Of a DNA stretch of 64,000 nt, positions 43,630 through 54,393 are shown one piece after another. Position 1 is the first letter of the stretch. The number at the start of each line of letters is the position of its first letter. Location of the stretch: the NCBI GenBank assembly GCA_037190175.1, contig JBBCJM010000004.1:3164-67163 (forward strand). The letters are read 5' to 3'. The notes below the pieces were generated by a model, which searched no databases, was not told the origin of the DNA, and was given only the letters and a program-made list of their open reading frames with translations. The DNA is from Paracoccaceae bacterium (lineage in GTDB: Bacteria > Pseudomonadota > Alphaproteobacteria > Rhodobacterales > Rhodobacteraceae). Position numbers and translations under genes: made by a program.

Positions 43630-44493
43630 TTACCTGCGCACGCCGTCGACGATGGCCATCGTCTTGTATTCCCAGAGATGCGGCTCGATCAGCACCTCCT
43701 GCGCGGCCTTCACGACCTCGTGCAGCGGAGCGGCGAGCCAGTTGGCCTTCTGGTATTCGAAGGCCTGCTCCACCGGCACGCGCCTGGCCCCCGCCCAGGT
43801 CACGAAGATGCGCAGGAGCCAGGCCAGCTGCGGATCCTGCTTGGCCAGCTCGAAGGTCATCGGCGTCGGGCCGTATTCGACCAGCACCAGCCGCCCGCCC
43901 GGCTTGATCAGCCGGGTCAGAGCGCGGAACTCGGGCACGTAGTCGTCGCAGTGGTGCATCTGGCTGGCGATCACCGCGTCGAACTCGCCCTCGGCATAGT
44001 TCGAGGCGAATTCGCGGTAGATCCCCCATTGCCGGGTGGTGCTGTTGCGGGCCTTGACATAGGGGCGCACCTCCAGCGGCACGACCTCCACCCCCGCGGG
44101 CAGGACCTCGCGCGCCACGTCGAGCAGGCCGGTGGGCTCCAGCGCCTCGGCGATCAGCAGCACCCGCCCGCCCGGGGGCACGCGCGCCTTGATGAAGCCC
44201 ATCTGGTGGAATTCGCGCTCGGGCTTCAGGAAGGCGGCGGTGGAGAACCGCTTTCCGAACAGCGGCTGCCGGTAATATTCGGCCATTTCCGCGAGGGATT
44301 CGAAAAGCGTATCGTCCCCTTCCGTCAGGCCGGTCCTGTCCCGGCCCGGATCCAGTTCGAGCCAGGGCTGGGAACTTCGAAAGACCTCATCGGTGATGAT
44401 CGTCCTGGTTTCGTCCGGCTTGCCCATGATATCCATCCCCCGGACCGCTTTGGCCATTTCTGGCCGAAGCCGAAAGGTCCGGCCGTTTTCCAT
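43630..44493 (-). CDS. Class I methyltransferase-fold protein with degenerate SAM-binding motif I; function unknown
   Basis: 287 aa. FDAVIASQMHHCDDYVPEFRALTRLIKPGGRLVLVEY is a typical Methyltransf_11-like post-I region. At the motif I position it reads GGRVLLIAEALEPTG instead of VLD.GCG.G. SD GGGAGAA. Confidence 0.6.
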   Translation of the reverse strand: MENGRTFRLRPEMAKAVRGMDIMGKPDETRTIITDEVFRSSQPWLELDPGRDRTGLTEGDDTLFESLAEMAEYYRQPLFGKRFSTAAFLKPEREFHQMGFIKARVPPGGRVLLIAEALEPTGLLDVAREVLPAGVEVVPLEVRPYVKARNSTTRQWGIYREFASNYAEGEFDAVIASQMHHCDDYVPEFRALTRLIKPGGRLVLVEYGPTPMTFELAKQDPQLAWLLRIFVTWAGARRVPVEQAFEYQKANWLAAPLHEVVKAAQEVLIEPHLWEYKTMAIVDGVRR

Positions 44494-44508
44494 GCGTTCT
44501 CCCAGGGC

Positions 44509-44577
44509 GATGGAAGCATCCCGCTCGGGGGCCGATCAATCTCGCAGATCCGGGGCGGCGATAGGAAGCACCTATCG
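44509..44577 (+). promoter_or_regulatory. Conserved non-coding block (copy 1) containing a LysR-type T-N11-A inverted repeat CGATAGG-N5-CCTATCG
   Basis: Lies between divergent genes 44493(-) and 44692(+). Positions 44534-44577 are 37/44 identical (hand count) to 49301-49344, and GATGGAA.CA.C also recurs further 5'. Confidence 0.55.
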
Positions 44578-44691
44578 GGCACGCCCCGCGCCCGCCGGCC
44601 AGCGCCCCGCAGGCCGCCGCGGCATTGACACCATGGCTGAACCTTCTAGCCTTGGGTCCCTTGGCACCAGCTCTCGGGGGCCCGGCCGGCC

Positions 44692-45594
44692 GTGGATATC
44701 AGACAGCTCCGCTACTTCGTCGTGCTGGCCAAGGAACTGCACTTCGGCCGCGCCGCCGAGAAGCTGGGGATCGCGCAACCCTCGCTGAGCGCACAGGTTC
44801 AGGCGCTGGAGGCCAGCCTCGGGGCCCAGCTTCTGACCCGCGGCCCCCGGGCGGTGACGCTGACCACCGCGGGCGCGATCTTCCTGGAGGAGGCGCGCCT
44901 GACGCTGGCCCAGGCGGACCGGGCCATCGCGGTCGGCCGCCGCGCCGGGCGGGGCGAGATCGGCACCGTCCGCATCGGCCTTGCGCTGGGCAGCACGCTG
45001 TCGGGCGCGCCCTCGATCATCATCGCGCAGTTCCGCGAGCGTTTCCCGGATATCGACATCCAGCTTTCGATCATGCCGCCGAACCGGCAGATCGACGGGC
45101 TGCGGAACCGGACCATCGACGTGGGCTTCCTGCTGCCCCCCTCGTCCATGCCCGACGATATCGAGGTGATCGGGCTGCAATTCGAGAAGCCCGCCATCGC
45201 GCTTTGCGCCGACCATCCGCTGGCGCGAAAGCCCACGCTGGAAGCCGCGGATCTGGCGGACGAGCCCTTTCTGGTCATGCATCCCGAAAGTTCCAACAGC
45301 ATCTACGAGGCGACGATCCAGCTCGGCAAGCACGGCCGGTTTTCCCCGCGCATCACGCGGATCGAGTACGATCTGGTCGCGCTGCTGAGCCTGGTCGGCG
45401 CGGGGTTCGGCGTGATCCTGGTCTCCGAGGCCGTGCAGCGGATCGCCATGCCGAACGTGGTGTTCCGCCCGCTCGTGGGGTTCCAGGCCAATACCGAGAT
45501 AGCGGCAGCCTATCGGCGCGACGAGACAGCCAAGCCGGTCAGGCCGCTGCTGCAGTTCTGCGCCCGGTACTCGAGCGGCGGCGGCGCGACCTGA
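44692..45594 (+). CDS. LysR family transcriptional regulator (divergent from the hyu/prpD operon)
   Basis: GTG start. MDIRQLRYFVVLAKELHFGRAAEKLGIAQPSLSAQVQALEASLGAQLLTR plus a LysR effector domain. 300 aa. Confidence 0.9.
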   Translation: MDIRQLRYFVVLAKELHFGRAAEKLGIAQPSLSAQVQALEASLGAQLLTRGPRAVTLTTAGAIFLEEARLTLAQADRAIAVGRRAGRGEIGTVRIGLALGSTLSGAPSIIIAQFRERFPDIDIQLSIMPPNRQIDGLRNRTIDVGFLLPPSSMPDDIEVIGLQFEKPAIALCADHPLARKPTLEAADLADEPFLVMHPESSNSIYEATIQLGKHGRFSPRITRIEYDLVALLSLVGAGFGVILVSEAVQRIAMPNVVFRPLVGFQANTEIAAAYRRDETAKPVRPLLQFCARYSSGGGAT

Positions 45595-45633
45595 CCGCGC
45601 GCGCCCACCCGCCGCCCTTCCGGCCGGCGGGGC

Positions 45634-47688
45634 TCAGAAGATGTCCATCCAGCGCGCGCGGGTCAGCGAGGGGAACATCCCGCCCAGCACGCTGTCCGGC
45701 CAGACCAGGCGAAGCCCCACATGCAGCACCAGGTAGGTGAGCGCGAAGAAGCCCAGGCTGTAGGCCAGCGGCGCGAGCCAGCCGGTCCTGCCCTCGATCT
45801 TGATGAAGGCGAAGATGAAGATCGCCATGGCCAGCATGAAGCCCACGAGCCAGGCGCTGACCAGGAACAGCGCCAGAAGCCCGACCAGCGTCGCCGAGCG
45901 GATCGCCAGGTCGCGGCGGCTGACGCCCGCCACGTCCTCGTTGCCGATGTCCATGCCGCCCGCGCCGGTATCGGCCTGGGCGAAGACATGGCGGCCCAGC
46001 AGATGCATGATCAGGAACACCAGCCCGGCGATGCCGATGGCCGTCGGATAGTAGCGCGCATAGTAGGGCCAGCCCGAGGAGGACACGAGGACCCACACGA
46101 AGAAGGCCAGCAGCAGGGCCAGGAAGATCGTGTTGGCCTCCATCCGGGGCAGCTGGGGCTGGAAGGCGAAGCCCTTGCGCGTGCCGTCCTCGTCGCGCGC
46201 GCGCAGGATCCGGACCAGGTGGCGGATCAGCGGGTTCAGCACGAAGAACAGCGCCATCAGCAGCAGCACCACGACGATGGGCCGGCTGAGCCAGTCCATC
46301 CCGTAGCGGGTGACGCTGATGAAGGCATAGCGTTCGGCAATGGCGCCCAGCACGAACCCCAGGATCAGCGGCGGCCGCGGCCAGCCCAGGAGCTTCATGA
46401 CCAGCCCGATCAGGCCGAACAGGAACAGCAGGCCCAGGTCCTCCCAGCTGTTGCTGGCCTGGAAAGCGCCGACGAAGACCAGCGACAGCACGATCGGCGC
46501 CAGGATATGCACCGGCACCAGCGCCATCCGGGCCAGATAGCCCGCGAAGAGGAAACAGATCGTCGCGCCCAGGATGTTGGCGACCGCGACCGACCAGACC
46601 ATCGTGTAGGTCAGGTCCAGGTTCTTGCTCAGCATGTCCGGCCCGGGATTGATCCCGTGGATCACGAAGGCGCCCAGCAGGATGGCCATCGAGGCGCCGC
46701 CGGGGATGCCGAAGGCGATGGTGGGCACCAGCGCGCCGCCCGCATTGGCGTTGTTGGCGGATTCCGGCGCAATCACGCCGCGCACGTCGCCCTTGCCGAA
46801 GGTCTCGGCCGCGCCCTTCTCGGTCGACCGGGCATGGGCATAGGTGATCCAGTCGATGACCGCCGAGCCGACGCCCGGCATGGCGCCCAGCACCGCGCCA
46901 ATGCCCGAGCAGCGCAGGACCAGGAACCAGTTCCTGAACGTGGCCCTGATCCAGGCGACCTGCGCCATGGGGCTGGTGTCCTGGAAGGTCCGGGCGATCT
47001 TGACCCGGCCGAGGACCAGCGTGGCGATCTCGGGGATGGCGAACAGCCCCAGCGCCACCACGACGATCGACATGCCGTCATAGAGGTAGATCGAGCCGAA
47101 GGTCCATCGCAGCGTCGCGGTCTGGCTGTCCTCGCCGATCGTGCTCATCCACAGCCCCACGCAGGCCATGATCAGCCCCTTCATCGGCGAGGTGCCGGAC
47201 AGGACCGAGACCAGCGACAGGCCCATCACGATGACCGCCAACAGTTCCGGCGTGGCGAGCGACAGCATGAGCGGGCGCAGCACGGGCACCGAGATGCCCA
47301 GCACCAGCGCGCCGAACAGCCCGCCGATGAGCGAGGCCGAGAAGGCGGCGCCCAGCGCCTCGGGCGCCCGGCCCTGGCGGGCCATGGGGTAGCCATCGAC
47401 GATGGTCGCCTGCGCCGCCACGGTGCCCGGCACCCCGAACATGACCGAGGGGATGGTGTCCGACGTCGCGGTGACCGACAGCAGCCCCAGCAGCATGGCC
47501 AGGGCGCTGGTGGTGTCCATGTCGTAGGTGAAGGGCAGGAGCATGGTCAGGCCCATCAGCCCCCCCAGCCCCGGCACCACGCCCAGCACCAGCCCGAGCA
47601 GCACGCCCGCGAAGAGATAGACCAGCCGCTCCAGCATGAACAGCTGCATGCCGGCTGACAGGGCGACCGAGAACACGTCCGTTTCCAT
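45634..47688 (-). CDS. Tripartite tricarboxylate transporter (TTT) large permease TctA fused to a C-terminal TctB-like four-TM module
   Basis: 684 aa from ATG 47688 (the track uses the TTG at 47691). TctA-like body (GVVPGLGG..., PGVGSAV..., GIPGGA). After residue ~515 there are four further TM helices, as in the small TctB subunit. Confidence 0.85.
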   Translation of the reverse strand: METDVFSVALSAGMQLFMLERLVYLFAGVLLGLVLGVVPGLGGLMGLTMLLPFTYDMDTTSALAMLLGLLSVTATSDTIPSVMFGVPGTVAAQATIVDGYPMARQGRAPEALGAAFSASLIGGLFGALVLGISVPVLRPLMLSLATPELLAVIVMGLSLVSVLSGTSPMKGLIMACVGLWMSTIGEDSQTATLRWTFGSIYLYDGMSIVVVALGLFAIPEIATLVLGRVKIARTFQDTSPMAQVAWIRATFRNWFLVLRCSGIGAVLGAMPGVGSAVIDWITYAHARSTEKGAAETFGKGDVRGVIAPESANNANAGGALVPTIAFGIPGGASMAILLGAFVIHGINPGPDMLSKNLDLTYTMVWSVAVANILGATICFLFAGYLARMALVPVHILAPIVLSLVFVGAFQASNSWEDLGLLFLFGLIGLVMKLLGWPRPPLILGFVLGAIAERYAFISVTRYGMDWLSRPIVVVLLLMALFFVLNPLIRHLVRILRARDEDGTRKGFAFQPQLPRMEANTIFLALLLAFFVWVLVSSSGWPYYARYYPTAIGIAGLVFLIMHLLGRHVFAQADTGAGGMDIGNEDVAGVSRRDLAIRSATLVGLLALFLVSAWLVGFMLAMAIFIFAFIKIEGRTGWLAPLAYSLGFFALTYLVLHVGLRLVWPDSVLGGMFPSLTRARWMDIF

Positions 47689-48129
47689 CAAGGTCCTGCC
47701 TCTGAGGATTTTGTCTTTGGCGTGGCCGCCTCGCGCGCGCCCGAAAGCCGCCCCCGCGCCGCGGAGGGGGCCGGAGAGGCCCCGGGGCGCTATCGCCGCA
47801 CGGCCGCGGCCCGTCGGTGGTCAGGCGCCTTCGCAGCCTGCCCGAGTTCGGGCGGCATCGCCAGCCTTCCGGCGTCGAAGGCCGGGCGCGGCGGCGCCCT
47901 GCCGGCGGCGCGGCCGCCGGTCCCTCGCGGGACGGGCATCCCGGTCATCCACCCGGCCCGGTCGCCGCCGGCGGTCCCGAAGCGGGCCGCTGCCGGCCGA
48001 AGCGCCCCGCAAGCGGTGCTCTGCGTTCCATGCGTTTCCTCCCGTCACGATGCAGTTGCGGTTGTCCCCGACTGCAAGGCCCGGCACCCCGTCGGCCATT
48101 GGGCGCCGGGCCCGTCCCCTTCCCGCGCC

Positions 48130-49182
48130 CTAGTTCTGTACCGCGGCGACCAGCTCGAAGTAGAGCGTCCTCGCCGCATCGACCAGTTCGACCGGCGTCG
48201 CCAGGATCGCCCGGATCTGGGCGTCCATCTCCTCGCCGGTGCGCGGGGAAAGGGGCAGTCCGCGGCCCTGGATCTCGGCCAGGAACTCGGGGTCCTGCAT
48301 CGTGGCGTCGAAGGCGGCGCGCAGCGCCTCGATCCGCTCGTCGGGCACGCCCTCGGGGGCGATCAGCGACAGCCCGATCACGCCCTGCGACTTGTAGATG
48401 TCGAAGAACGCCCGGTCGACGGGCTCCTTGACGAACTCGCCCAGGGCGGGGACGTCCGGGTGCGAGGGGTGCCGTTCCTCGGTGATCGAGACCAGCGGGA
48501 TGATCTCGCCCGCGTCGCGCTTGGCCGCCCACAGGATGTTGACGTTGGTCCAGGTCGGGGTCATCGCGTCGCTTTCGCCCTGCTCCATCGCCAGCATCAG
48601 GCCCGAGGTGCCGTCATAGCCCAGCACGACGCGCATCTGCGTGCCCGTCAGGTGGTTGATGAGCATGGGCGAGATCGCGAAATGGTCGCGCGGGCCCTGC
48701 GAGCCGGCGATCAGCGGCTTGCCGATGGCCTCCTCCAGCGTCGGGACGCCGGCCTTGTTCGAGACGATCAGCACGTTCGAGACATCCGTCAGCCGGCCGA
48801 TCCAGTTGAAGGACTCGACCTTGAAGCGGGCCGCCTCGTGCCCGAAGAGCTCGAAGATGATCAGTTCCCAGGACGGCAGCGACAGGACGGTGCCGTCCTT
48901 GGCCGCGGAATCGGCCATGAAGTTCAGGTTGCGGGTGCCGCCGGCGCCCTCCAGCGGCACCACGTTGATGTTCGGGTTGCCGGGGATGTGCTTGCCCATG
49001 TGCCGCGACAGGATCGTGGCATAGGTGCCATAGGTCCCCGCGATGGTGCCGCCGATGTGAAAGGTCACGTCGCGGCCGCGATAGAAGTCCTCGATCGAGG
49101 ACTGCGCCGCGGCGGGCAACCCCCCCATGACGAGGCCGGCCCCCGCAAGCGCGAGGCTTGCGAGAAATGTTCTGCGTGTCAT
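48130..49182 (-). CDS. Periplasmic substrate-binding protein, TctC/Bug-like (TTT family), with twin-arginine signal
   Basis: MTRRTFLASLALAGAGLVMGGLPAAAQ (T-R-R-x-F-L). About 350 aa PBP-like protein. Assigned to TTT mainly by adjacency to tctA and general layout. SD GGAGGAG. Confidence 0.6.
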   Translation of the reverse strand: MTRRTFLASLALAGAGLVMGGLPAAAQSSIEDFYRGRDVTFHIGGTIAGTYGTYATILSRHMGKHIPGNPNINVVPLEGAGGTRNLNFMADSAAKDGTVLSLPSWELIIFELFGHEAARFKVESFNWIGRLTDVSNVLIVSNKAGVPTLEEAIGKPLIAGSQGPRDHFAISPMLINHLTGTQMRVVLGYDGTSGLMLAMEQGESDAMTPTWTNVNILWAAKRDAGEIIPLVSITEERHPSHPDVPALGEFVKEPVDRAFFDIYKSQGVIGLSLIAPEGVPDERIEALRAAFDATMQDPEFLAEIQGRGLPLSPRTGEEMDAQIRAILATPVELVDAARTLYFELVAAVQN

Positions 49183-49276
49183 CAGGTCTCCTCCCCTTGC
49201 AGTCCCGGCTGGCCAGAGCTACCAGTTTCCTTGGGCTAGCGGTGTCCCTGTGCGTCCGGGCGGCGTTATGCAATCC

Positions 49277-49344
49277 GATGGAAACACCGGCCCCAGAGGC
49301 GATCAATCGCGCAGATCCGCGTCGGCGATAGGTTGAATCTATCG
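49277..49344 (+). promoter_or_regulatory. Conserved non-coding block (copy 2) with LysR-type box CGATAG-N7-CTATCG
   Basis: Same orientation as copy 1. Lies upstream of tctC-like (start 49182, minus) and ligM-like (start 49564, plus). See finding. Confidence 0.55.
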
Positions 49345-49563
49345 ACCCCCCGGGGCCAGGGCGCGCGATCCCCTTCGGTTCCTCGTGCTGCAACCGCCGC
49401 GGCGGGGGGGACGCCTGCCCGCCCGCCCTGATCGCGCCAGACTGCGGCGATGCGGGTCGCCCCCGTGTTATGATCGCATTGAAGGGTGTTATCCCGATTC
49501 AGCATAGGACGCGCCCGCGACCGGATGTCAGGCTGCCCCCGCCAAGGGAGGAGAGCCAGGACC

Positions 49564-50940
49564 ATGACGCAGCCGCGGTCGCTTGAGGACAAGATCAACC
49601 AGGTCGGAAACCCGTCGCTGATGCTGCAGAATGCCGGCGGCGGGCAGTACGTGTTTCCCATCCAGCCCCAGTTCACCAACTGGATCGAGGAGGTCAGGGC
49701 GTGGCGGAACAGCGCGGTCCTGCTGGATCAGTCCTACCACATGACCGACCTTTACATCCGCGGAAAGGATGTCGTCCGGCTGCTGAGCCATGTGGGCATC
49801 AACAGCTTCGCCGGCTTCGGCAGGAACAAGGCCAAGCAGCTGGTCTGCTGCAACCATGACGGCTATGTCATCGGCGACGTGATCGTGTTCGGCCTCGAGG
49901 ACGACGAGGCGCTGCTGGTGGGCCGGCCCCCCGTCTCGCACTGGGTCAAGTTCCAGGCCGAGACCGGCGGCTTCGATGTGGAGACCGAGCTCGACCTGCG
50001 CAGCCTCGAGACCACGGGCAGGCCGCGCAGGCTCTATCGCTTCGAGGTGCAGGGGCCACGGGCCATGGAGATCCTGGAGGCCGTCAACGAGGGCGGCCCG
50101 CTGACCACGCGGTTCTTCGCGATGGGAGAGATCCGCATCGCCGGCTGCACCGCCCGGACGCTGTGCCACGGCATGGGCGGGGCCAAGGGGCTGGAGATCT
50201 GGGGCCCCTACGAGGAAGGCGCCCGGGTGCGCGAGGCGCTGCTGGAGGCCGGCCGCGGCCACGGGATGCTGCGGGCCGGCGCGCGGGCCTATTCCACCGC
50301 GGCGATGGAATCGGGCTGGATCCCCTCGCCCCTGCCGGCGATCTATTCCGGCGAGGCGATGCGCCCCTATCGCGAATGGCTGCCGGCGGACGGGTTCGAG
50401 GCCACCTGCTCGGTCGGCGGCAGCTTCCAGCCCGAGGACGTCGGCGCCTATTACCTGACGCCCTGGGACCTGGACTATGGCCGGCTGGTCAGGTTCGACC
50501 ACGACTTCATCGGCCGCGCGGCGCTGGAACGCATGGCCACGCAGCCGCACCGCAGGAAGGTGACGCTGGTCTGGGACCGGCAGGGCATCCTCGACATCTT
50601 CGGGGGGATGATGGACGACTATCCCGCGCCCAAGCTGATGGAGCTTCCCTCGGGCCACTATGCCACCCATCCCTATGACCAGGTGCTGCTGGACGGCGAG
50701 CTGGTCGGGCTGTCCACCTATCCTGTCTATTCGGCGAACGAGCGGGCATGGATCTCGCTGGCGATGGTGCGCGAGGATCTGTCGGCGCAGGGCACGGCGC
50801 TTTCCATCCTGTGGGGCGAGGCCGGCGGTGGCAGCGCCAAGCCGCATGTCGAGCGCCACCGCCAGATCCAGGTCGGCGCCACGGTCTATCCCTGGCCGAT
50901 CCACGAGGTCGCCAGGCGCGAATACCGTCGCCAGACCTGA
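49564..50940 (+). CDS. Aminomethyltransferase (GcvT)-fold protein resembling tetrahydrofolate-dependent aromatic O-demethylases (LigM/DesA type)
   Basis: ATG at 49564 after GGGAGGAG. 458 aa. WRNSAVLLDQSYHMTDLYIRGKD, GLEIWGPYEEG, ESGWIPSPLPAIYSGE and YREWLPA match my recollection of LigM-type demethylases. Longer than GcvT/DmdA. Confidence 0.65.
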   Translation: MTQPRSLEDKINQVGNPSLMLQNAGGGQYVFPIQPQFTNWIEEVRAWRNSAVLLDQSYHMTDLYIRGKDVVRLLSHVGINSFAGFGRNKAKQLVCCNHDGYVIGDVIVFGLEDDEALLVGRPPVSHWVKFQAETGGFDVETELDLRSLETTGRPRRLYRFEVQGPRAMEILEAVNEGGPLTTRFFAMGEIRIAGCTARTLCHGMGGAKGLEIWGPYEEGARVREALLEAGRGHGMLRAGARAYSTAAMESGWIPSPLPAIYSGEAMRPYREWLPADGFEATCSVGGSFQPEDVGAYYLTPWDLDYGRLVRFDHDFIGRAALERMATQPHRRKVTLVWDRQGILDIFGGMMDDYPAPKLMELPSGHYATHPYDQVLLDGELVGLSTYPVYSANERAWISLAMVREDLSAQGTALSILWGEAGGGSAKPHVERHRQIQVGATVYPWPIHEVARREYRRQT

Positions 50941-50951
50941 CACCCCCGGCC

Positions 50952-52151
50952 TCAGGCCCGGGCCAGGCAGTTGCGCAGCGCCTGCTCGAATGCCGCCACG
51001 ATATCGGGCGATCCGCCGGTGGTGCGGAAGGTCAGCCCGATCTCGGTGCGGGCATCCGGCAGGTCGAGGTCCAGCCTCCTCAGCCCTTCGGGCAGGGCGG
51101 CGAGCCTTTCGTCGCTGTAGGTCAGCAGGGCGATGGAATCGCTGTAGAGGATCAGTTCCTCGGCATGGCGGAAGGACAGGATCTCGCAGGTCTGGGTGGG
51201 GGGAACCGCGCCGACCGTGCGGAACAGCCCCTCGAAGAAGGCCCGCACCGGCGTTCCGTGCGGCGCGACGATCCACCGCTCCCGCGCCAGGTCCGCAATC
51301 GAGAGCCCTTCGCGGTGGCAGGGATGGCCGCTTCGCGCCACCAGCGCGAACCTTTCGCTGTAGAGATGGGTCTCGGACAGATCGGCAAAGGGCGCCGGGT
51401 TGCGCAGCAGCCCGACGATGCAGTCGATCTCGCCCGACCGCAGCGCCTGGACCAACATGCTGTAGCTTCCCGGAACGGCCGCGAGGCGCAGGTCGGGATG
51501 GGCCTTGGTCAGTTCGCCGAACGCCCTGGCCACCAGATCCTGCCCCGAGAACGGCATCATCCCCACGGCAAGGCGGCCGACGAGCCCCTGTCCCTGCGCC
51601 GTCCCGGCCAGCGGCAGGTCCGAAAGCTCCCGGGCGAGCGCCTCGCGCAGCGCCGACAGCCTGAAGGCCGGCGGGCCGGGGTCCAGCCCGCGCGGCTTGC
51701 GCGCGAACAGATCCTGGCCGCAACAGCGCGCGACCGCGGCGATGGCCCGGCTGACGGCGGGCTGCGTGATCCCCAGCTCCAGCGCAGCGCTGCTGGCATT
51801 CCCGTGCCTGACCACCGCGGCGACTGCATCCAGCTGGTGCAGCGACAGGAAGGCGCCCAGATTGGGCCTGGTCCCGGAAAGCGCCGCGATGTCCTCCTCG
51901 GCCGCCGCGATCAGGCGCTGCACGTTCAGGCACCGGCGCAGCACCGCCTCGCCCCGCGCCGTGGGCTCCGCACCCCCCCAGCCGCGCTGGAACAGCGGGG
52001 CGCCCAGGCTGGTCTCCGCCGCCGCGACGGCGCGCGAGACCACGGGCTGGGTGGTGTTGAGCGCCTGCGCGGCCTGCGCGAACCCCCGGCAGCGCGCGAC
52101 GGCCTCGATGGCCCGGACCTGCTTCAGCGAAAGGGGGGGATGCCGCTGCAT
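50952..52151 (-). CDS. LysR family transcriptional regulator with duplicated N-terminal wHTH domain
   Basis: 399 aa. HTH-1 at residues ~7-60 (LSLKQVRAIEAVARCRGFAQAAQALNTTQPVVSRAVAAAETSLGAPLFQR). HTH-2 at residues ~102-152 (LSLHQLDAVAAVVRHGNASSAALELGITQPAVSRAIAAVARCCGQDLFAR). A single LysR effector domain follows. Confidence 0.85.
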   Translation of the reverse strand: MQRHPPLSLKQVRAIEAVARCRGFAQAAQALNTTQPVVSRAVAAAETSLGAPLFQRGWGGAEPTARGEAVLRRCLNVQRLIAAAEEDIAALSGTRPNLGAFLSLHQLDAVAAVVRHGNASSAALELGITQPAVSRAIAAVARCCGQDLFARKPRGLDPGPPAFRLSALREALARELSDLPLAGTAQGQGLVGRLAVGMMPFSGQDLVARAFGELTKAHPDLRLAAVPGSYSMLVQALRSGEIDCIVGLLRNPAPFADLSETHLYSERFALVARSGHPCHREGLSIADLARERWIVAPHGTPVRAFFEGLFRTVGAVPPTQTCEILSFRHAEELILYSDSIALLTYSDERLAALPEGLRRLDLDLPDARTEIGLTFRTTGGSPDIVAAFEQALRNCLARA

Positions 52152-52207: not shown

Positions 52208-52933
52208 TCAGCCGCCGCCGGCCAGTTGCCGCAGCCGGTCGCGGCTGCCGCCGAGGTGGACCCTGACCGCGGCACGGGCCGCGTCGGGGTCGCGGGCGCG
52301 CACCGCGTCGGCGATGGCCTGGTGCTCGTCGCAGAGCTTGCGGATATAGCCGCCGTCGTGCGGCGCCTCGTTCACCCCGGCCTTGCGCGGGATGATGTAC
52401 TGGCCGAGAAAGGTGATCATCCGCGGAAAATGGACGTTCTGCGTCGCCTCGGCGATGGCGAGGTGAAAGCTGAAATCCTCCTCGGCTGCGTTGCCGCCGG
52501 TGTCGGCGGCGGCCACGAAGGCGGCCATGGCGGCGGCGATGCGGTCCAGCTGCCCCGGCGTGGCGCGCTGGGCCGCCAGCGCCGCGCCCTCCAGCTCGAT
52601 CGCCAGCCGCAACTCGGTCAGTTCCGCCAGCGAGGAGACGCTGCCCTGGTCCGGCTGGAAGCGCAGCGGCTGCACCAGCGCGTCGGTGGCGACGAAGGCG
52701 CCCAGCCCCTGCCGCGTGGTCACGAAGCCCTCGGCGCGCAGCTGGGCCACGGCCTCGCGCACCACGGTGCGGCTGACCTTCATCGCCTCGATCAGCTCCT
52801 TCTCGGTGGGAAGCTGGTCGCCCGGCCCCAGCCGGCCCGCGAGGATGTCGGCGCGCAGGACGCCGGACACTTCCTCCACCAGCGTCGGCAGCCGGGCGAT
52901 GGGACGCATGTCCTGCGAACCGAATTTGTTCAT
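52208..52933 (-). CDS. GntR family transcriptional regulator (FadR/FCD subfamily)
   Basis: Internal ATG at 52933. LPTEKELIEAMKVSRTVVREAVAQLRAEGFV plus a C-terminal FCD-like helical domain. Confidence 0.9.
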   Translation of the reverse strand: MNKFGSQDMRPIARLPTLVEEVSGVLRADILAGRLGPGDQLPTEKELIEAMKVSRTVVREAVAQLRAEGFVTTRQGLGAFVATDALVQPLRFQPDQGSVSSLAELTELRLAIELEGAALAAQRATPGQLDRIAAAMAAFVAAADTGGNAAEEDFSFHLAIAEATQNVHFPRMITFLGQYIIPRKAGVNEAPHDGGYIRKLCDEHQAIADAVRARDPDAARAAVRVHLGGSRDRLRQLAGGG

Positions 52934-53031
52934 CGGCCGATCCTTATGGCTTGTATTCCCACCCTGCCGACCCACTCCTAGCATCCGGCGGAGCCGCCGC
53001 GACACGTCATGAGAGGGACGCTGCGAAAACC

Positions 53032-54393
53032 ATGTCCAGCCTCGCACCACATCGGGCGAACCGCCACCGCGAGGTGTTGCAGGTCGCCATTCCGGTGACG
53101 CTTGCGACCCTTTCGACACCGCTGGTCGGCCTGGTGGACACCGCGGTGGTGGCCCGGATCGGCGATCCCGCGGCGCTGGGGGGCGTGGCGGTGGCGGGCG
53201 TCATCGCCAATGTGGTGATCTATGCCTTCAACTTCCTGCGCACCTCGACCACCGGCCTGGTGGCCCAGGCCATCGGCCGCGGCGACGGGGCCGAGCAGGT
53301 GGCGGCCAGCCTGCGGGCGCTTTCGGTCGCGCTGGGGGCCGGGTTGCTGGCCGTGCTGTTCCGCCGGCCGTTGCAGGAGGCCGGGCTGGCGCTGATGGAG
53401 GTGGAGCCCGCGGTGGCAGGGGCCGCGCGCGACTATCTCTCCACCCGGGCGCTGTCGCTGCCGATGATGCTTGTGAACTTCGCCGTGCTCGGCAGCCTGC
53501 TGGGAGAGCGGCGGGTGCGCGCGGCGCTGCTGCTGCAGCTGTTCCTGAACATCACCAACATGGGCCTGGCCATCGCCTTCGTGCACGGGCTCGGCTGGGG
53601 GGTCGCCGGGGCCGGCACCGCCACCGCGCTGGCCGAGACGGCGACCGCCGCGGCCGGCTGCCTGCTGTTGTGGCGCAGGGCGCGCGGCCGGCTGGCCCCG
53701 GCGCTGGCGGTCTATGGCAAGGCCGAGCGGTTCCGCGCGCTGTTCCGCATCGGCGCCGACATCCTGATCCGCTCGATGTGCATCCTGGGCGCCATCGCGC
53801 TCTTCACCCGGATCGGGGCGGGGCTGGGCACCGGGGTGCTGGCGGCCAACGTGGTGCTGATGAACCTGTTCTACCTCTCCGGCGCCTTCCTGGACGGGCT
53901 GGCGACCGCGGCGCAGCAGATGTCGGGCCGCGCCTACGGGGCCGGCGATCGGCGGGCCTTCCTGGCCAATGCCCGGTTGCTCATGGGATGGGGCCTTGCC
54001 ATCGGCGCGGCGGTCTCGGCGGCCTATTTCGCGGCCGGCAACGGCTTCATCGCCGCGATGACGCCCGACCCCGAGATCGCCAGGCTGGCGCGGCGCTATT
54101 TCCCGCTGACCGCGCTGATCCCGCTGGTCGGCAGCCTGACCTTCGTGCTGGACGGGGTGTACATCGGCGCGACCTGGACCGCGCAGGCCCGCAACATCAT
54201 GCTGGCGGCGGTGGCGATCTTTGCGGTGGCGGGCGAGGTGCTGGCCGCCACCTTGGGCAATGCCGGGCTGTGGCTGGCGCTGCTGCTGTTCCTGGCCATA
54301 CGCGGGCTGGCGCAGCTGGCCTGGCTCGGCCGCCTGGCGGGCAGCGACCGGGCCTTCCCCGGGCATCACGCCGGGGAGCGCGGGGCCCTGTAG
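53032..54393 (+). CDS. MATE family efflux transporter (DinF-like)
   Basis: ATG at 53032. REVLQVAIPVTLATLSTPLVGLVDTAVV..., 12 TM segments, about 453 aa. Confidence 0.9.
   Translation: MSSLAPHRANRHREVLQVAIPVTLATLSTPLVGLVDTAVVARIGDPAALGGVAVAGVIANVVIYAFNFLRTSTTGLVAQAIGRGDGAEQVAASLRALSVALGAGLLAVLFRRPLQEAGLALMEVEPAVAGAARDYLSTRALSLPMMLVNFAVLGSLLGERRVRAALLLQLFLNITNMGLAIAFVHGLGWGVAGAGTATALAETATAAAGCLLLWRRARGRLAPALAVYGKAERFRALFRIGADILIRSMCILGAIALFTRIGAGLGTGVLAANVVLMNLFYLSGAFLDGLATAAQQMSGRAYGAGDRRAFLANARLLMGWGLAIGAAVSAAYFAAGNGFIAAMTPDPEIARLARRYFPLTALIPLVGSLTFVLDGVYIGATWTAQARNIMLAAVAIFAVAGEVLAATLGNAGLWLALLLFLAIRGLAQLAWLGRLAGSDRAFPGHHAGERGAL

What the first reader, a model, noticed from the sequence alone, without database searches (positions are those of the whole stretch)
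44509..44577. ~68-nt non-coding block with a perfect LysR-type palindrome, duplicated 4.7 kb away (copy 1, hyu/prpD-lysR divergent region)
Seen:
- Copy 1, 44534-44577: GATCAATCTCGCAGATCCGGGGCGGCGATAGGAAGCACCTATCG.
- Copy 2, 49301-49344: GATCAATCGCGCAGATCCGCGTCGGCGATAGGTTGAATCTATCG.
- These are identical at 37/44 positions (hand alignment), in the same orientation.
- A further shared GATGGAA(G/A)CA(T/C)C element lies ~25 nt to the left (44509 and 49277), with a 1-nt indel.
- Copy 1 contains CGATAGG-N5-CCTATCG: 7-bp perfect arms, with a T-N11-A core at T44562..A44574.

Established: T-N11-A inverted repeats in divergent lysR-target intergenic regions are classic LysR recognition sites.

Inference: the LysR protein at 44692-45594 controls both the 11-gene operon and the TTT transporter operon, and possibly the ligM-like gene, tying them into one regulon.
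Basis: partly seen in the sequence, partly recalled or inferred. Interest (0 to 1): 0.6.

Follow-up and report, generated by a model that had tools for sequence, protein, structure and literature searches.

The report
Duplicated LysR-type promoter-operator module
The repeated 69-base block is a complete regulator-dependent promoter present in two copies, which most likely puts an uncharacterised breakdown operon and a transporter operon under the neighbouring LysR-family regulator; this is an ordinary kind of wiring, but well documented here.

Summary
The two blocks match at 37/44 and 45/58 positions. They are the only two copies in the 4.9-Mb genome; the next-best 44-mer match is 30/44.

Read on the minus strand, each block is a full LTTR-type promoter:
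- GATAG-N7-CTATC dyad (T-N11-A), centred about -65;
- 13 nt of linker;
- TGCGnGATTGATCG, an ABS-like box containing a TTGATC -35;
- a 17-18 nt spacer;
- TGnTTCCAT, an extended -10.

Both copies point at the minus-strand operons: MT-like/hyuA/hyuB/prpD, and tctC/tctAB.

The same module, ungapped, sits upstream of the orthologous operon in nine other public loci. Orthologues of the LysR at 44692-45594 (52-69% identity) lie divergently next to it wherever they were found. A second genome (G061) also has exactly two copies and one LysR orthologue. Its second copy drives a different unit (aldolase/dioxygenase).

Within-genome copies resemble each other more than orthologous copies do, which suggests independent promoter duplications.

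Control of the ligM-like gene is not supported. Binding and transcription starts were not measured.

This is a new member of a known kind, of modest interest. The scan had noted both copies on this same window only, not on other DNA.

The parts
44509..44577 (-). Module copy 1: complete regulator-dependent promoter of the MT-like/hyuA/hyuB/prpD operon
   Evidence: 45/58 and 37/44 identity to copy 2. Aligns without gaps to 9 instances in other genomes.
44559..44577 (.). Copy 1 RBS-like dyad CGATAGG-N5-CCTATCG (T-N11-A), centre 44568, predicted about -65
   Evidence: Perfect 7+7 dyad. It is unique in the genome at 0 mismatches. The ATAG/CTAT core is invariant in 10/10 aligned instances, with no covariation beyond shuffles.
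44533..44546 (-). Copy 1 ABS-like box TGCGAGATTGATCG (minus strand), containing the -35-like TTGATC (44539-44534)
   Evidence: ATTGA and one G are invariant and T-C-T nearly so, at a fixed 18-nt distance from the dyad in all instances.
44510..44519 (-). Copy 1 extended -10 (minus strand ATGCTTCCAT: TG-n-TTCCAT). The spacer to the -35 is 18 nt and the predicted TSS is about 44503.
Evidence: A TGnTTnnnT-like hexamer lies 17-18 nt after TTGAT in 9 of 11 instances, seen by inspecting the output. The consensus scanner does not call it.
49277..49344 (-). Module copy 2: promoter of tctC-tctAB. Dyad 49326-49344 (centre 49335), -35 TTGATC 49306-49301, -10 TTCCAT 49283-49278 with a 17-nt spacer, predicted TSS about 49271.
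   Evidence: PWM score 59.4, against 14 for the next site in the genome.
44692..45594 (+). LysR-family regulator (LysR1), divergent from copy 1; proposed cognate activator
   Evidence: HTH_1 plus LysR_substrate domains. It has no close paralogue in the genome. Orthologues are adjacent to the module in L005/G061, L085 and L170. The closest solved relatives are ItcR, BenM and CbnR.
43630..44427 (-). First gene of the regulated operon (265-aa methyltransferase-fold protein); hyuA, hyuB and 2x prpD-like genes follow downstream
   Evidence: Pfam. There are 31 orthologue clusters of 263-268 aa.
48130..49182 (-). tctC-like periplasmic binding protein, the first gene downstream of copy 2
   Evidence: Pfam TctC; signal-peptide-like N-terminus read.
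45634..47691 (-). Fused TctA-TctB permease, downstream of tctC
   Evidence: TctA at residues 23-444 and TctB at 523-665 in one 685-aa frame.

Best explanation
Each block is a complete LysR-type (LTTR) activator-dependent sigma-70 promoter, read on the minus strand.

Anatomy:
- a high-affinity recognition dyad GATAG-N7-CTATC, centred about 65 bp upstream of the predicted transcription start;
- a fixed 13-nt linker;
- a conserved asymmetric box TGCGnGATTGATCG that acts as the activation site and contains the -35 hexamer TTGATC;
- a weak extended -10 (TGnTTCCAT) 17-18 nt further on.

Proposed mechanism:
- A tetramer of the divergently encoded LysR protein (44692-45594) binds dyad and box together.
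- On sensing an unidentified organic-acid inducer, it shifts on the box so that RNA polymerase can use the weak promoter.
- Copy 1 turns on the MT-like/hyuA/hyuB/prpD catabolic operon and copy 2 turns on the tctC-tctAB uptake system, so transporter and pathway form one regulon.
- The two copies arose by duplication of the roughly 70-bp promoter within the genome.

Shown here: the repeat; its uniqueness in the genome; its conservation, fixed geometry and fixed orientation in other genomes; and its co-occurrence with LysR orthologues.

Inferred: protein binding, activation rather than repression, the transcription start sites, and the inducer.
For: (1) There are exactly two copies in the genome, far beyond chance.

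(2) Phylogenetic footprint. Eleven instances align without gaps: win1, win2, G061a (= L005), G061b, L085, L166, L168, L169, L170, L171 and L178.
- ATAG, CTAT, a G of the TGCG box and ATTGA are invariant. The linkers vary.
- Every instance lies 106-153 nt upstream of, and points towards, the first gene of a unit of the same gene set: MT-like/HyuA/HyuB, Lyase_1, HbpS-like, class II aldolase, TTT transporter.
- The pattern hits only 3 single sites in 400 other genomes of the class, and all 3 lack the TGCG box.

(3) The geometry matches the LTTR rule: a T-N11-A RBS near -65 and an ABS near -35 (PMC5603801). Dyad centre to -35 hexamer centre is 31.5 bp.

(4) Regulator link.
- LysR1 orthologues are divergent and adjacent to the module in G061/L005 (69%), L085 (67%) and L170 (52%).
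- Their HTH recognition region is conserved.
- G061 has one LysR1 orthologue, two module copies and no LysR2 orthologue.
- Four orthologous or related loci without the module (L165, L167, L177, L179) have no LysR1 orthologue in the DNA held.

(5) The dyad arms are conserved in sequence and do not covary, as expected for a protein site. There is no Rfam match.
Against: - No binding, transcription start or expression data exist.
- The simple sigma-70 consensus scan calls no promoter in either region, so the -35/-10 assignment rests on conserved position only.
- L166 and L171 carry the module but have no LysR1 orthologue within 8 kb upstream; the divergent gene there is an MFS transporter or an aldolase.
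- L168, L169 and L178 are cut by contig ends or rearranged.
- ATAG-N7-CTAT is a generic LTTR-type core, so another LTTR could bind it.
- Some instances were found with patterns derived from the window, which inflates the 'invariant' columns somewhat.
Confidence: 0.68

Rival explanations
1. The module is an operator-promoter for a regulator other than LysR1, either another LTTR or another family encoded elsewhere. On this reading the adjacency of LysR1 reflects only common gene neighbourhood.
For: L166 and L171 carry the module without a LysR1 orthologue within 8 kb. The window holds two more regulators nearby: a PcaQ-like LysR2 and a GntR/FCD protein. The ATAG-N7-CTAT core is generic for LTTRs.
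Against: - LysR1 orthologues are adjacent and divergent in all four loci where one was found.
- G061 keeps two modules and one LysR1 orthologue but has no LysR2 orthologue.
- GntR/FadR-type sites are not T-N11-A dyads (from memory).
- Module-less related loci carry IclR or MarR regulators instead.
Confidence: 0.17
2. The blocks are two paralogous copies of an ordinary constitutive promoter kept by descent, and the dyad has no regulatory role.
For: Within-genome copies share variable positions, 15/23 and 17/23, which indicates duplication rather than convergence. The -35 box is the best conserved part.
Against: - The dyad core is invariant across loci whose first-gene proteins are only 64-85% identical, while adjacent linker bases vary freely.
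- The spacing to the -35 is fixed.
- The -10 is weak, as in activator-dependent promoters.
Confidence: 0.08
3. The block is a REP/MITE-like repeat, or it encodes a structured RNA such as a leader, attenuator or small RNA.
For: It contains a perfect hairpin-forming dyad and occurs more than once.
Against: - There are only two copies in 4.9 Mb.
- Rfam gives no hit.
- The stem shows no covariation: 121/500 shuffles score as high.
- The block lies upstream of the conserved -35/-10 of the gene it faces.
- It has no terminal repeats.
Confidence: 0.03

Closest known systems
PnpR/PnpM regulon of Pseudomonas sp. WBC-3 (PMC5603801)
   Same: One LTTR, encoded beside its targets, activates several separate catabolic operons. 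Each target promoter has a T-N11-A-type RBS upstream of the -35. RBS near -65 and ABS near -35.
   Different: The dyad sequence differs (GTT-N11-AAC vs ATAG-N7-CTAT), as do the pathway and the regulator. There, binding and transcription starts were measured; here they are predicted. Here the whole RBS-to--10 unit is a recognisable duplicate.
BenM/CatM/CbnR-type LTTR promoters of aromatic-acid catabolism
   Same: LysR1 matches BenM, CatM and CbnR over its full length (E 3e-34 to 9e-30). From memory, their sites are ATAC-N7-GTAT dyads at about -65 with weaker sites over the -35, next to a divergent regulator gene.
   Different: The half-site is ATAG, not ATAC. LysR1 scores far below the BenM and CatM model cut-offs (133 vs 600 and 116 vs 580 bits). 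The target genes are unrelated.
ItcR, the itaconate-responsive LTTR (PDB 7W06-7W08; PMC9636186)
   Same: It is the closest solved relative of LysR1 (E 1.9e-44 over residues 1-284). It is an organic-acid-sensing LTTR.
   Different: There is no evidence that LysR1 senses itaconate. The ItcR operator was not compared. Target genes differ (ict/ich/ccl there, from memory, vs hyuAB/prpD-like here).
ThnR at close divergent promoters (PMC4834489)
   Same: In L171 one dyad is flanked on both sides, at the same distance, by ATTGA(T/C) boxes facing divergent genes. This recalls an LTTR serving two divergent promoters (title and abstract).
   Different: This is seen only in L171, not in the window. It was not analysed further.

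Membership tests
LTTR (LysR-type) operator-promoter | Dyad with a T-N11-A core (RBS) | tested here: met
   GATAG-N7-CTATC at 44560-44576 and 49327-49343. The ATAG/CTAT core is invariant in 10 aligned instances.
LTTR (LysR-type) operator-promoter | Second, weaker site overlapping the -35, about 30 bp from the RBS centre | tested here: met
   The conserved TGCGnGATTGATCG box lies at a fixed distance. Dyad centre to TTGATC centre is 31.5 bp in all instances. That it is a protein contact is inferred.
LTTR (LysR-type) operator-promoter | RBS centred near -65 of a mapped transcription start | not testable with these tools
   The start is only predicted (about 44503 and 49271) from the conserved -35/-10 positions.
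LTTR (LysR-type) operator-promoter | LTTR gene next to the site, usually divergent | tested here: met
   Met in the window, G061/L005, L085 and L170. Not seen in the held DNA of L166, L169, L171 and L178.
LTTR (LysR-type) operator-promoter | Specific binding by the LTTR and inducer-dependent activation | not testable with these tools
   Needs EMSA or footprinting, a knockout and reporters.
REP / MITE-type intergenic repeat | Many copies dispersed at unrelated intergenic sites | tested here: not met
   Two copies in 4.9 Mb; the next-best PWM score is 14 against 57-59.
Structured RNA element | Match to a known family, or compensatory changes in the stem | tested here: not met
   No Rfam match in 44000-50000 at E<=1 except a chance miRNA hit elsewhere. 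Four of 7 pairs never vary, and the covariation score is reached by 121/500 shuffles.
OxyR-type site (ATAG-N7-CTAT-N7-ATAG-N7-CTAT; consensus recalled from memory) | Two tandem ATAG-N7-CTAT dyads 7 nt apart | tested here: not met
   The first dyad fits. At the position of the second, only the last AT is conserved (column reading). LysR1 scores 81 bits vs the OxyR cut-off of 329.

The most novel reading that the evidence does not exclude
The roughly 70-bp unit (dyad to -10) behaves as a copyable regulatory cassette. In two separate lineages (this genome and G061) it was duplicated within the genome and placed in front of different transcription units: a TTT transporter here, an aldolase/dioxygenase operon there. 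This would be regulon growth by duplication of a whole promoter-operator rather than by point-mutational birth of a site.
Probability: 0.5. Interest if true: 0.45.

Novelty: new member of a known kind. Interest (0 to 1): 0.36.

Why it matters
It gives a concrete, testable regulon for an uncharacterised catabolic operon: one regulator, two promoters, and defined bases to mutate. It links a specific uptake system to that operon, which narrows the search for the unknown substrate and inducer. The conserved module is also a sequence tag for finding the same regulon in metagenomes. The within-genome similarity of copies in two lineages is a clean small example of regulon rewiring by promoter duplication. 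None of this changes what is known about how LysR-type regulators work.

Tried and rejected
- REP-like repeat: rejected by whole-genome pattern, Hamming and PWM scans.
- Known RNA family: none found.
- RNA hairpin: no covariation.
- Consensus promoter/terminator scans: nothing called in either intergenic region.
- A third dyad-like site inside lysR (45497-45515, 2 mismatches): not conserved in the L005 orthologue and lacks the ATTGA box, so taken as chance.
- LysR1-based scans of genome and metagenome collections: only two close orthologues (L005, L085). All other hits were at or below 42% identity.
- First pattern search: my N-run was one base too long and found nothing. Corrected.
- TctC orthologue route for copy 2: only one closer homologue (51%, L183). 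It has no module and lies next to a GcvT-family gene and an unrelated LysR.
- Literature search for the gene combination: no paper.

Full report
**1. Observation**

- The repeat finder lists them as family D6: 58 nt, 78% identical, same orientation, 4767 nt apart.
- My own count gives 37/44 and 45/58.
- Against every position of both strands of the whole assembly (G000: 4.90 Mb, 272 contigs, 70.7% G+C), the 44-mer's best matches are 44 (itself), 37 (copy 2), then 30. For the 58-mer they are 58, 45, then 36.
- A 32-nt degenerate pattern with up to 3 mismatches finds only these two sites.
- The perfect dyad CGATAGG-N5-CCTATCG is unique. With one mismatch, only copy 2 is added.

The repeat is therefore real, has two copies, and is not a dispersed REP-like element. 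MAFFT shows that similarity stops at the edges of the block.

**2. Genes around the two copies**

| Coordinates | Strand | Gene |
|---|---|---|
| about 29.2-44.4 kb | - | DUF2125, sulfatase, aldehyde dehydrogenase, class II aldolase, HbpS/GlcG-like, Lyase_1, two MmgE/PrpD, HyuB, HyuA, and a methyltransferase-fold protein as first gene |
| 44692-45594 | + | LysR-family regulator (LysR1), divergent from that operon |
| 48130-49182 | - | tctC |
| 45634-47691 | - | fused tctA-tctB |
| 49564-50940 | + | GcvT-fold, LigM/DesA-like gene, below both NCBIfam cut-offs |
| 50952-52151 | - | PcaQ-like LysR with two HTH domains (LysR2) |
| 52208-53119 | - | GntR/FCD regulator |

Copy 1 lies between the first operon gene and lysR1. 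Copy 2 lies between tctC and the ligM-like gene.

The first operon gene most likely starts at ATG 44427, not 44493. Its 31 orthologue clusters are 263-268 aa long, and the N-terminus of the L005 orthologue aligns from that Met.

**3. Anatomy**

Read on the minus strand, which is the strand of the genes that both copies face, the block is:

nGATAG-N7-CTATCn, then N13, then TGCGnGATTGATCG, then N17-18, then TGnTTCCAT.

It is an extended -10 of weak consensus.

With a start about 7 nt past the -10, the predicted starts are near 44503 and 49271. That puts the dyad centres (44568 and 49335) at about -65 and -64, with the conserved box over the -35.

This is the textbook LTTR layout: an RBS with T-N11-A near -65 and an ABS near -35 (PMC5603801). 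The simple consensus scanner calls no promoter here. The hexamer assignment therefore rests on conserved position, not on match quality.

**4. Comparative evidence**

LysR1 is rare.
- Only one 41% hit appeared in 60 relatives.
- One 69% orthologue appeared in the species-genome collection (L005, an alphaproteobacterial MAG).
- One 67% orthologue appeared in the metagenome collection (L085).
- Both of these carry the module between lysR and the orthologous MT-like/HyuA/HyuB operon.

Starting instead from the MT-like protein, I fetched eleven further loci; one (P0014) came without DNA.
- The module is present upstream of the MT-like gene in L166, L168, L169, L170, L171 and L178.
- It is absent where that gene is internal to a longer operon (L165, L167).
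- It is also absent in more distant clusters with other regulators (L177 with IclR, L179 with MarR/TRAP).

All instances align without a gap over 49 nt.
- ATAG, CTAT, one G of the TGCG box and ATTGA are invariant.
- The linkers and the dyad spacer vary freely.
- Every instance lies 106-153 nt from the start codon of the gene it faces.
- The 41-nt degenerate pattern hits only 3 single sites in 400 other genomes of the class, and none has the TGCG box.
- A PWM built from eight instances scores the two window copies 57-59 and the next genomic site 14.
- Caveat: part of the invariance is by ascertainment, because some instances were found with window-derived patterns.

**5. Which regulator**

- tblastn finds LysR1 orthologues only in L005/G061 (69-72%), L085 (67%) and L170 (52%). 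Each is divergent and adjacent to the module. The DNA-less P0014 locus also shows a divergent 299-aa LysR.
- The N-terminal HTH and recognition helix are highly conserved among them.
- G000 has no close LysR1 paralogue.
- G061 has exactly one orthologue, exactly two module copies, and no orthologue of LysR2.
- Against LysR1: L166 and L171 have the module but no LysR1 orthologue within 8 kb. L168, L169 and L178 are cut short or rearranged. The records could not be searched further.

I put LysR1 as the cognate regulator at about 0.7.

**6. The second genome**

In G061 the main operon contains the TTT transporter genes: MT-like, HyuA, HyuB, HbpS, Lyase_1, TctC, TctB, TctA. The second module copy, 13 kb away on the other strand, drives a class II aldolase, a 289-aa protein and a glyoxalase/dioxygenase-fold protein.

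The regulon's gene content is thus conserved while its partition into two units differs.

Over the 46-nt module, the within-genome pairs agree more than any cross-genome pair:

| Pair | Identity over 46 nt | Identity at the 23 variable columns |
|---|---|---|
| win1 vs win2 | 38/46 | 15/23 |
| G061a vs G061b | 40/46 | 17/23 |
| Cross-genome pairs (close relatives G061/L085 set aside) | 20-34/46 | 2-11/23 |

In both genomes the similarity runs from the dyad to the -10 and then stops. The simplest reading is independent intragenomic duplication of the whole promoter. Gene conversion or co-evolution with the regulator cannot be excluded.

**7. The ligM-like gene**

- The module is directional and points away from ligM.
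- No mirrored ATTGA box lies on the ligM side of copy 2, unlike L171, where a mirrored box faces a divergent aldolase.
- The ligM ATG is 229 nt from the dyad centre.
- The region nearer ligM has its own features, including GTGTTAT direct repeats 21 nt apart.
- The only closer TctC homologue (51%, L183) lies beside a GcvT-family gene and an unrelated LysR, without the module. This hints that the transporter and a GcvT-type enzyme travel together. That hint concerns function, not control by this module.

**8. Rivals**

- Structured RNA: no Rfam family. The dyad is conserved in sequence without covariation.
- REP/MITE: two copies only.
- Plain constitutive promoter: hard to square with an invariant dyad at fixed spacing.
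- Another regulator: possible (see section 5).

**9. Comparison with known systems**

LysR1's closest solved relatives are ItcR, the itaconate sensor (7W06; PMC9636186), then BenM, CbnR and CatM. All NCBIfam matches are below cut-off, the best being AlsR at 235 vs 430 bits.

The arrangement works like multi-operon LTTR regulons such as PnpR (PMC5603801). It is a new member of that known kind, attached to an uncharacterised pathway.

**10. Not done**

Structure prediction was not needed.

Noticed in passing
G000 contig C217:5269-5287 (outside the window; L185:3770-3788): A perfect dyad CGATAGA-N5-TCTATCG with the same GATAG-N7-CTATC core. It is followed 19 nt later (module: 20 nt) by TTGATC and a CTATTG -10-like hexamer. 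It lies between an AsnC-type regulator gene and a NAD-formate-dehydrogenase-like operon (2Fe-2S NuoE-like, then molybdopterin subunit). It lacks the TGCG box. It could be another LTTR's site or a third weak target.
   Followed up: partly
window 50952-52151 (-); also G000 C88:23189-24310, C88:34402-35424, C172:6796-7971: The PcaQ-like LysR has two HTH_1 stretches (399 aa). Three further frames in the genome match it from residue about 6-8 onward in open frames of 436-513 aa, so the double-HTH form may be a small paralogue family here.
   Followed up: partly
window 49465-49471 and 49486-49492: GTGTTAT direct repeats 21 nt apart, 70-100 nt upstream of the ligM-like ATG (49564). They are a candidate separate operator or promoter for that gene, distinct from the module.
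   Followed up: no
window 45634-47691 (-); L183:27-233: TctA and TctB are fused in one 685-aa frame. A 72%-identical N-terminal fragment lies in L183 next to a 51% TctC homologue, a GcvT-family gene and an unrelated LysR.
   Followed up: partly
L171:7842-7912: One dyad is flanked symmetrically by ATTGAT (towards the MT-like gene) and ATTGAC (towards a divergent class II aldolase). This is an apparently bidirectional version of the module.
   Followed up: partly
L167:5485-5731 and L165:2694-2955: The two module-less orthologous loci share GGCGGCAAGATTGATTGTAGAATC in their operon-start intergenic regions. An AGATTGAT box like the module's is present without the ATAG-N7-CTAT dyad, which may be a diverged operator.
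   Followed up: no
L178:520-1427: Upstream of the module lie a 44-aa HTH_1 fragment and an IS66-family transposase fragment. The regulator gene there may have been disrupted by an insertion sequence.
   Followed up: no
window 45497-45515: AGATAGCGGCAGCCTATCG, a 2-mismatch version of the dyad, lies inside the 3' end of lysR1. It is not conserved in the L005 orthologue and is probably chance.
   Followed up: yes
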